Source of the DNA: Carcharhinus longimanus
Taxonomy: Eukaryota
Assembly: GCA_030264375.1 (NCBI GenBank)
Contig: JASCQW010000105.1
Location: 46,828,594 to 46,892,593, forward strand
DNA: 64,000 nucleotides
Direction of reading: 5' to 3'
The position numbers are program-made. Shown piece by piece: positions 41,501 through 47,500 of this stretch (position 1 is its first letter; each line of letters starts with the position of its first letter).

Positions 41501-44500
41501 ACTCCTGAAGTCCAACTGCCAAGCTCAACTTTACAACCGCTGCAAAACGAGTTTGGATTTGTGTTCAACTGCTGCTCCGTTCTCTGATTTGCACTCTATT
41601 GCTGCTCCACGCTATCAAACTTTTGCTATCTGCTGCATGTTGCACTCTGCCACGCTACCACAGTAATCAGTCTTTTGATACAAGTGCCTTATCCAAACAC
41701 TGGCAGGGATTGTTTTGTATCTTAGAGAAATGGATTGCAGCAATTCCATTTCTGTCCATTTTTAATTTTATTAAATTCAGGTTTTGTTTAAAGTTCAATA
41801 TTTCTGGTGTAATTCCATGATTTTTTTCCACCATCACAACGAATGTAATAGCGTTCAAGGTAATGCCAAGATACCAACAAAGTGCTTTCATGCCAAGATC
41901 GCACATGCTACTTTACAATTTATTTTTGTAAATTTTTGTTTCCTTTTAAAGAATAATGCCAGTAATGCTAACAAAAATACTTAGTACATGTATTTGTGTC
42001 TGTAAGGATCCCATCACTAATTGAAGAACAGTGCTGTTCTCCCACTGCCATGACCACCATTTATTTCTAAACCAATTTGTACTCATTTATTTGATATCAA
42101 AAGTGACCTGGATGTGCACAAATTGGCTAAAGCATTTCCTACATTGCAACAAAAATGAGAATGCAAAGAACTACATTGGCTGAAAAGTGCTCTTGGACAT
42201 CTGGAGCTTATAGTAGAATTTGTGAAGGAAACATATGGATAATTGGTAGAATTCAAATATATTTAAGATATTTTAATTTAGAATTCAGAAAGTGGAGACA
42301 TATTCAAGAATAATAATTTTTACCCGAAAGCCTTTAAACCATACACATGGTCAATTCTTGCTGACAGCTTTGATATCAACAGATGTTAAATAGACCTCTT
42401 TTGTACTATGTATAAAGTAACACTAGGGTCCTTCAAGTTCTCTGCACATTAAGCTAAGATAAGAAAACGCTTTAAAGCTTATCTCAAAAGGAATTTTAAA
42501 AGCTTTCATGATGGTATTGTCTCTCTTTTTATCTATCAGAAGATTCTCTTAAAACTACCTCAGCAAATTAGAAGAACAGACTTTAAAAATATATTTTATA
42601 AAATGTTTAAAATTACTTCTATAGAGATAGAAACAATTGAAGGTAAACAGGAAAGATATTCAGGGCATATTTTAGAGTGTTGTGCCATATATCTGGCTCA
42701 CAACATGAATAATAAACCATTTTAACAATTAAATAATAGAGAATAATAAGGGCACATCTAAGGGGATGATTTCATTAAAGAGGCAACACATATTTCTAGT
42801 AAAGAATGAAGTAATCTGGTTTAGAAGTATATAACTGTTCCAGTTTCCTTTCAGAACATTAGAAATATTGTGGAAGGGTACTGACAAAACGCATTCAATG
42901 TTTCTCTGGTTGTTCAGAGGTTGGATATCATAATGCAAGACAGCTTTAAGTTCCAAATGCCCAAAATTTGATTTATGTGGGAATTCAGGTTTGGACATAA
43001 AAATTGTATGTTTTACACATGGCCTGACTCTTCTGCACCTTCAGCTTCAGTTAAGAAGCCATGCTGAAAGCTTGATGTACCAGTGGTGGTGGAAACATGA
43101 CACCAGATTTTCAATCTGTTCTGGATTCTGCAATACCTATCAGACAGAGTTTGCATCAGCTTACAGGGGGCTTGCCAATGTCACCTTAAGGAATGCAATT
43201 TCCCAAAGCATTTGAACCATCCAAGTTGCATACTTCCCAATGTAAGTGTGGAACTCATTTCACCAAGGGACTTTTAAGGATCAATATTTCATCAGGGAAA
43301 CTCTTAAAATGGGGATAAATACTGCTTAAAATACATAGCGAAGTCCAGATGGACTTTTGCTGAAACTTTTTCCAGACACTAACATCCACCTTGTTATATA
43401 GGAAAACATTTCTTAGTATGTCATGACAAAGTTGTGAAAATTTTCACTTTCTGGTTAGCAGAATGTCTGCCTGTACTCGCTGCAGTTAGACCAAAAGAAA
43501 GTGTCCAAATTAGTCTGAAATACTCAGCTATCATCAGATGAAGTTAGGGCGAGACTGCAGAGCAATGCTTCAATGCCGGCAGCTTTCCAAAACCGAATTG
43601 GAGGTTTTAACTTGGCGTGTTTCCAGATTGCATATCCATATGCTGGATGTCCATGTTGCCCTGACATGCATGTACAGCGCACAATCCATACAGTGCACAA
43701 TCCACTTAATTCGGGATTCAGGATGGAAGTAACAGGACAATATCTCTCCATAGTTGTTTTCCTTGGTGGAGACATGATTCAATTTCTCAGACCCAAAGCA
43801 CGTGTTTGTGTGAAGTTGGTTCCTTGAAAGTAGGTGAAAGTGTTTGTTGAGAGAGATTTCCTAATCTAACGTCATTTACTTTTGAGGCCAAAGTTATAAT
43901 CTACTTCAATCTTGCCCATTATAGATATTGCATCAATGTAATGGAACATCTGTGACATATTCCTGAACCTTTTTTTATACTTTGGTAGAACTGTGACAAA
44001 AATAAAGCATTTTTGTTTACAATATATCTTTATTTTGCTTTGTCTGATTTTGGAAGAGTGATCGTGATTAGCTTCATTTACAGAGAGTGAAATGACTAAG
44101 TTTAACATGATTACCATCATGTGTTGCTATTAGTTGCTCAACTGAGCCAGATGCTTCAGTGAGAGATCAAACTAAGCCAAAGCTGGTATCCAATATATAT
44201 TTGAAGAACAGGCCAAATGCATGGTATTTGGCCTGTTCTTCAAATATATATTGGATACCAGCTTTTCTCAGAAAAAAATATGTAAAATTTTGTCTTTCAT
44301 GTGTGTTGAAAAGTAATTTGGTTCGTTCAAATTCAGGCTGCTCTCTGAAACCTTCAGAGTTGATGGCTTCCATGAATTGAGAAGAAAAAACAACGAGGAG
44401 TGGATATTTTTGTGGAAGAGTGAAACAAGGTGCTAAATGTATGCAAATAAGATACAACAATTTCGGAGACTGCTTTTAGTATGCAATTCTGGTCCTAATT

Positions 44501-47500
44501 ACTGATTACCTTTGAATTTGCCTGGAGGGCTAAAGTAGACACCAAACTTAATCAGCACTCAATCACTGCTTAAATGCAATTTTCATGAAGCAGTTATGTA
44601 TGGACTTTGTGCATGTGCTTCGATTTGAAGATGAGGAGTATGCTGGCTGACACACAGTGCCAGATTTTAGGTTGGCGCAGAGATTGAATGAGACAGCGCT
44701 GTGCTTTTTCAAAGGAATGAGTAGTTTTCCTTCTACTTCTATAGATCTCTTATCACCTTGTCAATCAGATTTAGAGTCTTTGTAAACATTGTGGTTGGGA
44801 AAAATGGGGGTACTTGAGATACGTTCAAGCATGAAGGGAAATGTAAATAAACACAGCTGACTGAAATCTGATTAGAAATCCATTAACCTGTGAATTAAAG
44901 CCTACTTCAAAGCACTGCACTATGAAATTGAAAGAGATTGCAACTCTTTTGGATTGCAACTTCCATCCTGAATTCCGAATTAAGTGGATTGTGAGCTGCA
45001 CATGCACGTCAGGACAACGTGGAGAGCCAGCATATGGATATGCAATCTGGAAACAACGCCAAGTTTAATACCTCCAATTTGGTTTTGGAAAGCTGCTGGC
45101 ATTGAAGCATTGCTCTGTAGTCTCTCCTTAACTTCCTCTGATGATAGCTGAGTATTTCAGACTTATCTGGACACTTTTTTTGCCATAGAGAAGGTTTCAG
45201 CTTGCTCTGAAGGCTTAGGAGACTTCAGATAAAAGCTATGTGAATACATTGGGCTGAGTGCAAAGCTGTGGAGAATGAAACATCTCTTCTCTTTCAGAGA
45301 TCCCCAAAGGGGTCTGCTCACATCTGCAGTTTCTTACAGGGAAAAAGGGAAATCCCTGCTGCAGTGTTGCTGTGATTTTAAAAGCCTGCCAGGTGACCAT
45401 GGGACATGGAGATTAAAATGACCAGGTCACTTCAAAATTTTTTACAGCTAGCAGGCAAGAATGAAGAACAGTAGCAGCTTGAAATCACCATGTTAGTGGT
45501 GATCTTCAGCTCTGCCAGATCTAAGAGGGGCCACCATCCTAGGAGAAAGTGGCGAGGTTAACCACTTGCCCCAGACTGAGACCATCCAACCTCCAGGACC
45601 CTCGAGGGATGGTAGCGTAGTGATTAGCACTGCTGCCCCATAATGCCAAGGACACGGGTTCAATTCCAGTCTTGGGTGACTGTGTGTGGAATTTGCACAT
45701 TTTCCCCTGTCCATGTGGGTTTCCTCCAGGTGCACCCACTTCTTCCCACACTCCAAAGATGTGTGGGTTAGGTTGATTGGCTATGCTAAATTAGCCCTTA
45801 ATGTCAGGGGTAAATTTGTAAGAGTTTAGGCATAGGGCCTGGATGGGATTCTCGTTGGTGCAGGCTCGGTGGAGCCTGCTTTTGCACTGTAGGGATTCTA
45901 TGATTCTATGACCGTTCTCTCCAGCTTGGCAGTAGCAAAGTGGCAAATGGGCTCTGGACAACCCTCAGGGCTCAATGTGCCAGACAAGGTGTTAGTGTCA
46001 GGGGCAGTGCACTGTTGACACTGTCAAGGCATGTGGCCTGACTGGGGGATCTGAATGAGGAGTCTGAATCGGGAAGGGGCTTAGTGGGGGGAGGGGTTGT
46101 GGGGATTGAAAGTATTCAATAGAAACAGCAGAGAATGATTTCAAACTGTCACAGTGAAGATTTATCACTATCTTAAACCCCCATCACAGCTTCTTGCTTG
46201 GGCTGGCACAGTTGCATAGAGTTTTCTTCCAGATTTCTGAGCATTCATTAAATGCTTTTCCCTATAAATCCATGAAACTTCAATGAAACTTACTTTAACT
46301 TCAGAGCAAACGTGTGTGCTTTCTAAATTCAGTTCCCCAGCAATCTTGCAGGATTTCTTATTCGATAACTTGAAACTATTTCATTCTCTTCATTCTGTGG
46401 TGGACACACACTGACTGTCCTTCTGTATTTTCCTGTGTCTGTGTGTATGTCCCTGGAACAGCATCACTGGGCAGTAGCAGTTTGTTCTGCTTTATTTTTT
46501 TTCCTGAAGTCACTAAACTATTAACTCCTTTTTAAACCTTCTCTTCATTTCAAAAATTGCAAAACATTATTAAAAGTACATGGACACAAAGAGGGCCTCC
46601 AGACCTCCCAGCACCTCACAAAATACTCCAAATGAAACTGGAGTCGTAGTTCACAGAATCATTCAGTGCAAAAGGAGGCCATTTGGCCTACTGAGTCTGC
46701 AGCGACCACAATCCCTCCCATGCCCTATCCTCATATATTTACTCTAGCTAGTCCCCGTGGCACTAACGGGCAATTTAGTATGGCCAATGCACCTAACCCA
46801 CACATCTTTAGATTGTGGGAGGAAACCAGAGCACCCCGAGGAAGGCCATGCAGATACGGGGAGAATGTGCAGTCTCCACACAGACAGTGACCTAAGCCGG
46901 GACCCTGGCACTGTGAGGCAGCAGTGCTAACCACTGTGTCATTGTACCACCCATTTCATCTTCCTTAACACACAAATACAATTAGAAATTAAATTTAAAG
47001 TTACACATTATTCCTAGAGCCTTTTTTCACTGAATGTATCTTTACTGTATGTTATGAAATATCTACTTAAATTTCTGCCACTGCATCACCTCTGAATTAT
47101 CCCAGTTCACTTTATCTAAGATCACATGCCATGCAGCCTCATTAATGAGTACCATCACGTGACTTAAGTGATAATCAGCTTTGTGACTTGCTGGGCAGTC
47201 ATATTTAGCACAACCTTAAACTCCTTTACCAGGCGGTGCCTTGATTTAAATTTGAGCACACCCCTACATCCAGCTTTAGACGCCAGTTGAGCTGTTTAGG
47301 AGGTTCAGTCTCATCTGAGCAAGCTATTGAAAATTCATAGTTCAGGCCTGCAATCAAAAACTATTTGTTAGTTTTTACTTACTCATGGGGATAGTTCTCG
47401 CGAATGTCATATCTATATTGCCTCATTGCAAGTTGAATAAATGTGAAGCCTAAGTTTTATGAGGGCAGATAAGGGGCAGATGGAATTTAACCCAGAAAAG

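What the first reader, a model, noticed from the sequence alone, without database searches (positions are those of the whole stretch)
43492..45182. Nested inverted-repeat locus: ~230-bp arms around a 1.2-kb unique spacer holding a perfect hairpin
Seen: 43492-43730 and 44959-45182 are reverse complements at ~92% identity. Their homology stops sharply at both ends, they match no other repeat in the window, and no frame gives a recognisable protein. The spacer has no SINE/LINE or transposase remnant and contains a separate perfect 40-bp palindrome. Inference, three options: (a) an unclassified long-TIR or foldback DNA transposon (I see no clear TSD); (b) a long-range dsRNA pairing in an intron or lncRNA, which could be an ADAR substrate or drive exon looping/circularisation; (c) a head-to-head pair of small RNA genes. 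Arm differences are mostly transitions (by my count about 6 G-U-compatible versus 4 A-C on the + strand), which fits neutral decay as well as selection.
Basis: partly seen in the sequence, partly recalled or inferred. Interest (0 to 1): 0.7.

Follow-up and report, generated by a model that had tools for sequence, protein, structure and literature searches.

The report
Decaying inverted repeat, non-coding shark DNA
Two ~230-base stretches facing each other across 1.2 kb of non-coding DNA in what looks like a shark-type genome are real, but they look like an ordinary decaying relic of a dead mobile element or a local copying accident, with no sign of an RNA or protein function.

Summary
43493-43730 and 44959-45182 are reverse complements: 203 of 222 aligned bases are identical (91.4%), with three indels and blastn E 2e-75. 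Homology stops sharply at all four ends and the window holds no other copy. The 40+7+40 palindrome at 44179-44265 is perfect.

No function shows. There is no protein signal, no Rfam family at gathering score and no tRNA. The arms fold no better than shuffles. The arm differences look neutral: 11 transitions, 8 transversions, several at CpG, and 12 of 19 break pairing on the + strand.

Origin is not settled. I slightly favour a dead non-autonomous DNA element with long terminal inverted repeats (0.4), because the arms are richer in CpG than the spacer, the flanks and the window. Against it, there is no target-site duplication, transposase remnant or second copy. The main rival is a local inverted duplication made by template switching (0.3). 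The hairpin fits a separate, probably younger template-switch event.

Copy number in the host genome could not be checked. Interest is low.

The parts
43493..43730 (.). Left arm of the inverted repeat (238 nt)
   Evidence: Of 222 aligned positions, 203 are identical to the reverse complement of the right arm. GC is 0.44, with 6 CpG and o/e 0.52.
43673..43704 (.). 16-nt tandem duplication inside the left arm, absent from the right arm
   Evidence: TRF gives period 16, 2.0 copies, 93%. It appears as a 16-column gap in the alignment.
43731..44958 (.). Unique non-coding spacer (1228 nt)
   Evidence: Apart from its own hairpin it matches nothing in the window. None of its ORFs of 30 aa or more has a Pfam match at E<0.01. 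GC is 0.36 and CpG o/e 0.25.
44179..44265 (.). Perfect hairpin: 40-nt arms (44179-44218, 44226-44265) around a 7-nt loop
   Evidence: The arms are 100% complementary. The fold is -71.6 kcal/mol, z -14.6. A search of 44120-44320 gave 38 matches at E up to 0.001, nearly all miRNA-precursor models and often on both strands, all below gathering score.
44959..45182 (.). Right arm of the inverted repeat (224 nt)
   Evidence: GC is 0.43, with 4 CpG and o/e 0.39.

Best explanation
The 1,691-bp unit (43493-45182) is most likely one dead copy of a non-autonomous cut-and-paste DNA element. The two ~230-bp arms would be its terminal inverted repeats and the 1.2-kb interior carries no gene. In such elements a transposase made elsewhere binds both arms, cuts the unit out and pastes it in at a new site. 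This copy has since decayed neutrally, to about 9% difference between the arms. The perfect 40-bp hairpin in the spacer is a separate and probably younger event, best explained as a replication template-switch mutation.

Shown: the inverted arms, their sharp ends, neutral-looking decay, the absence of coding or structured-RNA signal, and the higher CpG content of the arms. Inferred: mobility, origin from elsewhere in the genome, and the mechanism behind the hairpin.
For: 1. The geometry is that of a TIR element: two arms with matching, sharp outer and inner ends around unique DNA.

2. The arms look like younger or immigrant DNA. CpG o/e is 0.52 and 0.39 in the arms, against 0.25 in the spacer, 0.10 and 0.14 in the 1-kb flanks, and 0.21 for the window. 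Only 15 of 507 background 230-nt windows hold 6 or more CpG, as the left arm does. Only 3 of 507 hold 8 or more, which is the number of CpG columns in the two arms together. Two other local low-copy duplicate pairs in the window are CpG-poor like the background, with 0-1 CpG each.

3. Four of the 11 transitions (at left-arm 43578, 43595, 43654, 43666) change a CpG, as expected for a methylated, unselected sequence.

4. Chance adjacency of two copies of an abundant repeat is unlikely. The window holds no third copy. The pair is also more alike (91%) than nearly all other repeat pairs of 100 nt or more in the window, which are mostly 65-89% identical.

5. The overall size (1.69 kb) and arm length (224-238 bp) fall in the range reported for long-TIR Tc1-type elements. 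Most of those are 1.5-1.7 kb with TIRs of 180-300 bp, and one such group is reported from one cartilaginous-fish species (PMC9777934, passages read).

6. For the hairpin: a single template-switch event can create a perfect inverted repeat, with inferred events of 28 up to 83 bases (PMC10710096, passages read). Zero differences in 40 pairs has probability 0.028 if the hairpin were as old as the arms.
Against: There is no target-site duplication. Local alignment of the ends finds nothing above shuffles. A brute-force scan finds only CC or CCA directly next to the ends. Longer direct matches near the ends are no better than at 300 random control sites, where matches of 6 or more occurred in 210 of 300. 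At about 4.5% decay per arm a real TSD should mostly survive.

The outermost bases are A/T runs, not a recognised terminal motif (recalled knowledge of terminal motifs, not a tool test).

There is no transposase remnant in any of 39 ORFs of 30 aa or more. There are no inner or outer direct repeats in the arms and no tandem sub-repeats beyond one 16-nt duplication.

There is no second copy in 64 kb, and copy number in the genome could not be checked.

The CpG argument rests on 4-8 sites and was chosen after looking at the data.
Confidence: 0.4

Rival explanations
1. A local inverted duplication made by the replication or repair machinery. On this reading, a polymerase switched template or a break was repaired with a templated insertion. 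About 225 bp lying 1.2 kb away was copied in reverse orientation, and both copies then decayed neutrally. The locus would be single-copy and was never mobile. The small perfect hairpin would be a smaller, later product of the same kind of error.
For: No TSD is expected, and none is found. Sharp ends, a unique spacer and the lack of other copies in the window all fit. The substitution pattern is neutral. The same window holds two other low-copy local duplicate pairs of similar size and identity: 164 nt at 93% (58673/59671) and 115 nt at 89% (8335/8558). So local duplication is active here. Template switching is a documented source of inverted copies (PMC10710096 passages). Foldback and templated inverted duplications at breaks are described in PMC11724301, PMC10622511 and PMC3907307, which I saw only as search listings with the start of the abstracts.
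Against: The arms are CpG-richer than the spacer, the flanks and the window, whereas the two direct local duplicate pairs are CpG-poor like the background. A copy of old resident DNA should look like the background. The template-switch events described in the passages I read are tens of bases long and adjacent, not 225 bases copied from 1.2 kb away. Both other local pairs are direct, not inverted.
Confidence: 0.3
2. Two separate insertions of one ~225-bp interspersed repeat (a SINE, a MITE or a LINE tail) that happen to lie head to head 1.2 kb apart.
For: This is a common source of inverted repeats in vertebrate genomes (general knowledge). CpG-rich arms fit a young repeat family. The window is full of SINE-like and LINE fragments.
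Against: The window has only these two copies, both within 1.7 kb. My rough estimate of the chance of such closeness at that density is about 5% (inference). Both copies share the same two ends. Neither arm has its own TSD. There is no tRNA-like head, no Rfam match and no terminal inverted repeat within an arm. The arms do not match the SINE-like or LINE families of the window.
Confidence: 0.1
3. A functional RNA locus. Either the arms pair in a transcript to give ~220 bp of dsRNA (an editing substrate, endo-siRNA source or exon-looping device), or each arm is a small RNA gene and the hairpin is a microRNA precursor.
For: The predicted arm-arm duplex is -363.5 kcal/mol on the + strand and -349.0 on the - strand. 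The hairpin has a 40-bp perfect stem. Read outward, each arm ends in a run of T.
Against: The differences do not spare pairing: 12 of 19 are mismatches on the + strand and 15 of 19 on the - strand. The arms alone fold no better than shuffles, with z +0.19 and +0.42. No Rfam family reaches its gathering score anywhere in the window. No family matches both arms even at E up to 10. The hairpin gave 38 weak matches, nearly all to miRNA-precursor models and often equally on both strands, which is what any perfect hairpin does. An internal TTTT lies in the outward strand of both arms and would stop RNA polymerase III about halfway (general knowledge). No exon or gene was found within 8 kb.
Confidence: 0.08
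4. An assembly artefact: the inverted arrangement, or the perfect palindrome, was created by the assembler or by chimeric reads.
For: This is a draft assembly with 12 runs of N. At least one gap (18024-18123) has 50 nt at 98% identity duplicated on both sides.
Against: The locus lies inside an 11-kb stretch without N, between 40377 and 51422. The arms differ at 19 positions and 3 indels, and artefactual fold-backs are normally near-identical (inference). The perfect 87-nt palindrome cannot be cleared in this way.
Confidence: 0.05

Closest known systems
Long-TIR Tc1/mariner elements (Sleeping Beauty / ZB type, DD34E)
   Same: Total length is 1.69 kb and the arms are 224-238 bp. The paper reports most intact copies at 1.5-1.7 kb with TIRs of 180-300 bp, and one group in one cartilaginous-fish species (PMC9777934, passages).
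   Different: There is no TA duplication at the ends, no transposase remnant and no internal direct repeats in the arms. The termini are A/T runs, not the GC-rich-then-AT-rich end motif described there.
Non-autonomous TIR elements / MITE-like elements in general
   Same: Inverted terminal arms around a non-coding interior.
   Different: At 1.7 kb it is larger than a MITE. No TSD was found, and multi-copy status is unknown.
Template-switch mutations that create hairpins (Monttinen, Frilander, Loytynoja 2023, PMC10710096)
   Same: The 40+7+40 perfect palindrome is the expected product of a single event. The inferred events in that paper span 28 to 83 bases.
   Different: The ancestral state is unknown here. 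The 225-nt arms 1.2 kb apart are far outside the sizes described in the passages I read.
DIRS-type retroelements (inverted terminal repeats, no TSD)
   Same: Inverted terminal repeats of a few hundred bases and no target-site duplication. The family features are recalled, not taken from a call.
   Different: The locus has no reverse transcriptase or recombinase remnant. No internal region is complementary to the arm ends; the arms match nothing in the spacer.
Inverted-repeat dsRNA sources (inverted SINE pairs edited by ADAR; hairpin-RNA loci giving endo-siRNAs)
   Same: The arms could form ~220 bp of near-perfect dsRNA if transcribed.
   Different: There is no evidence of transcription and no pairing-preserving substitution pattern. 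The arms are not copies of any repeat or gene that I could find.

Membership tests
Tc1/mariner long-TIR (IR/DR) transposon | Length about 1.5-1.7 kb with TIRs of about 180-300 bp | tested here: met
   The unit is 1,691 bp with arms of 238 and 224 nt. The ranges come from PMC9777934.
Tc1/mariner long-TIR (IR/DR) transposon | TA target-site duplication directly flanking the ends | tested here: not met
   The flanks read ...GACC| and |CCAT.... TA occurs 4 nt outside each end, but only 3 of the 6 terminal bases would then match. That is chance level.
Tc1/mariner long-TIR (IR/DR) transposon | DDE transposase ORF or its remnant in the interior | tested here: not met
   Among 39 ORFs of 30 aa or more there was no Pfam match at E<0.01 and no transposase family even at E up to 10.
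Tc1/mariner long-TIR (IR/DR) transposon | Outer and inner direct repeats within each TIR | tested here: not met
   The outer 60 nt against the rest of each arm scored 12 and 15, against shuffle means near 14. Of 500 shuffles, 474 and 153 did as well.
Non-autonomous TIR DNA transposon (any superfamily) | Target-site duplication of 2-10 bp | tested here: not met
   Searches found only CC or CCA next to the ends. Near-end matches are no longer than at 300 control sites.
Non-autonomous TIR DNA transposon (any superfamily) | Several copies in the genome with the same ends and different flanks | not testable with these tools
   No eukaryotic genome collection and no Dfam or Repbase were on hand. The window has 0 further copies. 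The bacterial and archaeal genome collection has 0 matches to a 27-nt arm core, which says nothing about the host.
Foldback elements | Long arms built of tandem sub-repeats | tested here: not met
   TRF finds only one 16-nt x 2 duplication, and only in the left arm. The TCCA motif occurs 7 times against 1.55 expected, which is not significant after correcting for 256 four-mers.
DIRS-type retroelement | Reverse transcriptase / tyrosine recombinase coding remnant and an internal complementary region | tested here: not met
   There is no Pfam hit and no arm-to-spacer match.
microRNA gene (hairpin 44179-44265) | Match to a curated family at its gathering score, on one strand | tested here: not met
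   There are 0 matches at gathering score. A search of 44120-44320 gave 38 sub-threshold matches, best 51.9 bits against a cut-off of 96.2, often on both strands.
microRNA gene (hairpin 44179-44265) | Transcription and processing into ~22-nt products | not testable with these tools
   No RNA data were available.
Polymerase III small RNA gene pair (arms) | Known family, tRNA-like or other internal promoter, stable fold, and no internal terminator | tested here: not met
   Rfam has no hit shared by both arms at E up to 10. ARAGORN finds 0 genes. Fold z is +0.19 and +0.42. An internal TTTT is present in both arms.
Selected dsRNA structure | Substitutions that keep pairing (G-U or compensatory) in excess | tested here: not met
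   On the + strand, 7 differences are G-U compatible and 12 are mismatches. On the - strand the counts are 4 and 15. With only two sequences, covariation cannot be tested.
Template-switch hairpin | Perfect inverted repeat with a short loop, created in one step | tested here: inconclusive
   The structure fits, but the ancestral sequence needed to show the event is not available.

The most novel reading that the evidence does not exclude
The locus is a dsRNA-producing gene of a cartilaginous fish. On this reading, a transcript through 43493-45182 folds its arms into ~220 bp of dsRNA that feeds endo-siRNA production or heavy A-to-I editing. The newly made perfect 40-bp hairpin inside it would be a microRNA at birth. 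A second bold reading is a long-TIR mobile element that leaves no target-site duplication, meaning an unclassified integration chemistry.
Probability: 0.06. Interest if true: 0.55.

Novelty: new member of a known kind. Interest (0 to 1): 0.2.

Why it matters
As it stands it matters little. It is one more low-copy inverted repeat in a repeat-rich, apparently gene-free stretch, with neutral decay and no sign of function.

It would matter modestly if a genome-wide search showed a family of such units without target-site duplications. That would be an unclassified mobile element in cartilaginous fishes, whose DNA transposons are little described.

It would also matter if RNA data showed the arms or the perfect hairpin being processed. 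That would be a case of a hairpin RNA or microRNA caught soon after birth.

Tried and rejected
1. Protein coding in the arms. Four of the six frames are open over the left arm. The 102-aa + frame ORF found no word-sharing candidate. The 96-aa - frame ORF had 0 hits at E up to 0.001 among 1.84 billion representatives. The other two open frames were only scanned against Pfam. The 1-, 1- and 16-nt indels break any shared frame.

2. Transposase or reverse transcriptase remnants in the locus: none.

3. Gene context. Of 173 ORFs of 70 aa or more across the window, the only family matches above a curated cut-off were LINE-type: RVT_1 in 2, a third RVT_1 match below cut-off, and one ALKBH8_N-type match. 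The 97 ORFs of 45-69 aa in 36-52 kb outside the locus gave nothing above cut-off. Shorter exons would be missed.

4. Rfam. The whole window gave 0 matches at gathering score. Searches at E up to 10 covered the locus, each arm, the hairpin (E up to 0.001) and the whole window. Two weak hits to 'ST7 overlapping transcript' models briefly suggested a conserved locus: 16.8 bits against cut-off 50 on the right arm, and 18.2 bits at 44689-44781. The 91%-identical left arm gives no hit, and the whole window gives no ST7 model hit. I treat them as noise.

5. A resemblance I thought I saw between the inner end of the arm and 5S rRNA (recalled) has no support. No 5S model hit appeared.

6. TCCA motif enrichment in the arms: 7 against 1.55 expected, p 1.1e-3 before correcting for 256 four-mers, and 2 of 488 background windows reach 7. 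It is not significant.

7. TSD searches for the whole unit and for each arm alone: nothing above chance.

8. An exact scan of the bacterial and archaeal genome collection with a 27-nt core shared by both arms found 0 matches. This was only a check for stray copies and carries no weight for the host.

10. Literature searches for long-TIR elements or MITEs in cartilaginous fishes listed nothing that describes an element like this. Only titles and abstract starts were seen, apart from PMC9777934.

Not done: searches of the phage, plasmid and E. coli collections (irrelevant), structure prediction and complex prediction (there is no protein).

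
Full report
**What is there**

The window is a draft assembly. It is 64 kb with 12 runs of N totalling 947 bases and a GC content near 0.40.

Its only protein signals are LINE-type reverse-transcriptase fragments. Among the best 120 relatives of one such fragment (2-445, minus strand), the named ones include five cartilaginous fishes at 51-62% identity: Scyliorhinus torazame, Hemiscyllium ocellatum, Callorhinchus milii, Pristis pectinata and Stegostoma tigrinum. 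Other named hits are a fluke, an amphipod and several short 'bacterial' contigs that are probably contamination. I therefore take the contig for a cartilaginous-fish genome and not for human.

The N runs were left as they are. The locus lies in an 11-kb stretch without N, between 40377 and 51422.

- **Arms.** 43493-43730 (238 nt) and 44959-45182 (224 nt) are reverse complements. Of 222 aligned positions, 203 are identical (91.4%), with 11 transitions and 8 transversions, giving K2P 0.091.
- **Indels.** There are two 1-nt indels and one 16-nt insertion. The insertion is a tandem duplication in the left arm.
- **Significance.** blastn gives E 2.4e-75.
- **Sharp ends.** 200 nt beyond either end is no more alike than shuffled sequence. 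For the outer flanks, 96 of 300 shuffles score as high; for the inner flanks, 123 of 300 do.
- **No other copy.** Neither arm nor the spacer matches anything else in the window.
- **Hairpin.** 44179-44265 is a perfect 40+7+40 palindrome with a fold of -71.6 kcal/mol, z -14.6.

**No evidence of function**

- **Protein.** No ORF of 30 aa or more in the locus (39 tested) matches a Pfam family at E<0.01. Of the four open frames over the left arm, I searched two in the large protein sets and found no relatives. The indels also break any common frame.
- **Known RNA families.** Rfam finds nothing at gathering score in the whole window. No family matches both arms even at E up to 10. ARAGORN finds no tRNA-like sequence.
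- **RNA structure.** On its own, each arm folds no better than its shuffles, with z +0.19 and +0.42.
- **dsRNA.** If the locus were transcribed the arms would pair strongly, at -363.5 kcal/mol on the + strand and -349.0 on the - strand. But the 19 differences do not spare pairing: 12 are true mismatches on the + strand and 15 on the - strand.
- **Decay pattern.** Four of the 11 transitions change a CpG. This is the signature of unselected decay in a methylated genome.
- **Hairpin and miRNA models.** The hairpin gives 38 weak matches, nearly all to miRNA-precursor models, often equally on both strands and all below their cut-offs. Any perfect hairpin does this, so it is not evidence of family membership.

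**Where did the inverted repeat come from?**

Three DNA-level origins remain, and the tools at hand cannot separate them cleanly. No eukaryotic genome collection and no repeat library could be searched.

*(A) A dead non-autonomous DNA element with long terminal inverted repeats.*

For:
- The geometry fits.
- The size (1,691 bp) and arm length fall in the range reported for long-TIR Tc1-type elements, mostly 1.5-1.7 kb with TIRs of 180-300 bp (PMC9777934, passages read).
- The arms look like DNA that arrived later than its surroundings. CpG o/e is 0.52 and 0.39 in the arms, against 0.25 in the spacer, 0.10 and 0.14 in the flanks, and 0.21 in the window.
- Only 15 of 507 background windows hold 6 or more CpG, as the left arm does. 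Only 3 of 507 reach the 8 CpG columns of the two arms combined.

Against:
- There is no target-site duplication.
- There is no transposase remnant.
- The arms have no internal direct repeats or sub-repeats.
- The termini are A/T runs.

*(B) A local inverted duplication by template switching or templated repair.*

For:
- It explains the missing TSD, the sharp ends and the apparent single copy.
- The window holds two further local low-copy duplicate pairs of similar size and identity: 164 nt at 93% and 115 nt at 89%, both direct.

Against:
- Those two pairs are CpG-poor like the background, whereas the inverted arms are not.
- The template-switch events in the passages I read are tens of bases long and local (PMC10710096).

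*(C) Two independent insertions of one interspersed repeat.*

This needs a coincidence, because the only two copies in 64 kb lie within 1.7 kb of each other. Neither arm has its own TSD, a SINE-type head, or inverted termini of its own.

Weighing these, I put A at 0.4, B at 0.3, C at 0.1, a functional RNA locus at about 0.08 and an assembly artefact at 0.05.

**The hairpin**

A perfect 40-bp inverted repeat with a 7-nt loop is what one replication template-switch event produces (PMC10710096, passages read). If it were as old as the arms, the chance of no difference in 40 pairs would be 0.028, so it is probably younger. It is not centred in the spacer: it lies 448 nt from the left arm and 693 nt from the right. 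It shares no sequence with the arms. The 'nested' arrangement therefore looks like two unrelated events. An assembly artefact cannot be excluded for this small perfect palindrome.

**Comparison with known systems**

The unit works most like a non-autonomous TIR transposon, but it fails the tests that would make it a member of any named superfamily: TSD, transposase remnant and terminal motif. I do not file it under Tc1/mariner, foldback or DIRS elements. It is best called an unclassified low-copy inverted repeat.

**What stayed unchecked**

- Copy number and orthologous loci in the host and related genomes.
- Dfam and Repbase.
- Long-read support for the arrangement.
- Any RNA data.
- The closed metagenome and viral contig collections.
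- Paper supplements. The species tables of PMC9777934 might name the cartilaginous-fish species and its element.
- Two of the four open arm frames in the large protein sets.

**Verdict**

The feature is real, and its coordinates and description are accurate. It is decaying neutrally, its origin is unresolved between a dead long-TIR element and a local inverted duplication, and nothing points to function. Interest is 0.2.

Noticed in passing
window 58673-58836 and 59671-59834: A direct low-copy repeat pair: 164 nt, 93% identical, sharp ends, 834-nt spacer, CpG-poor, with no TG...CA ends. It is similar in size and age to the inverted arms but in direct orientation.
   Followed up: partly
window 8335-8449 and 8558-8672: A direct repeat pair: 115 nt, 89% identical, 108 nt apart.
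   Followed up: partly
window 19638-19759: A second, imperfect hairpin with 54-nt arms, 81% complementary, and a 14-nt loop. It gives weak sub-threshold miRNA-model hits on both strands.
   Followed up: partly
window 53527-53612: A weak hit to a miRNA precursor model (mir-791, 31.4 bits against cut-off 70, E 0.025). I did not examine it.
   Followed up: no
window 6438-6699, 10009-10329, 13388-13486, 20995-21139, 22173-22468, 45592-45908, 46651-46953, 49662-50007: About eight copies of a ~300-nt SINE-like interspersed repeat, 68-88% identical to one another, in both orientations. ARAGORN detects no tRNA head in them.
   Followed up: partly
window 2-445 (-), 15317-15583 (+), 48885-49292 (-); also 4284-5351 similar to 48360-49419: LINE reverse-transcriptase fragments (RVT_1). 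Their closest named relatives include five cartilaginous fishes.
   Followed up: partly
window 17974-18023 and 18124-18173, either side of the N run 18024-18123: The same 50 nt at 98% identity on both sides of an assembly gap. It is probably an unclosed overlap, meaning an assembly artefact.
   Followed up: no
window 61044-61188: A tandem duplication of a 72-nt unit, 2.0 copies, 98% identical.
   Followed up: no
protein search results: Several close relatives of the fish-type LINE reverse transcriptase are filed under bacterial names (Proteus mirabilis, Klebsiella pneumoniae, Carnobacterium maltaromaticum). They sit on contigs of 1.5-3 kb, which probably means eukaryotic contamination in those assemblies.
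   Followed up: no
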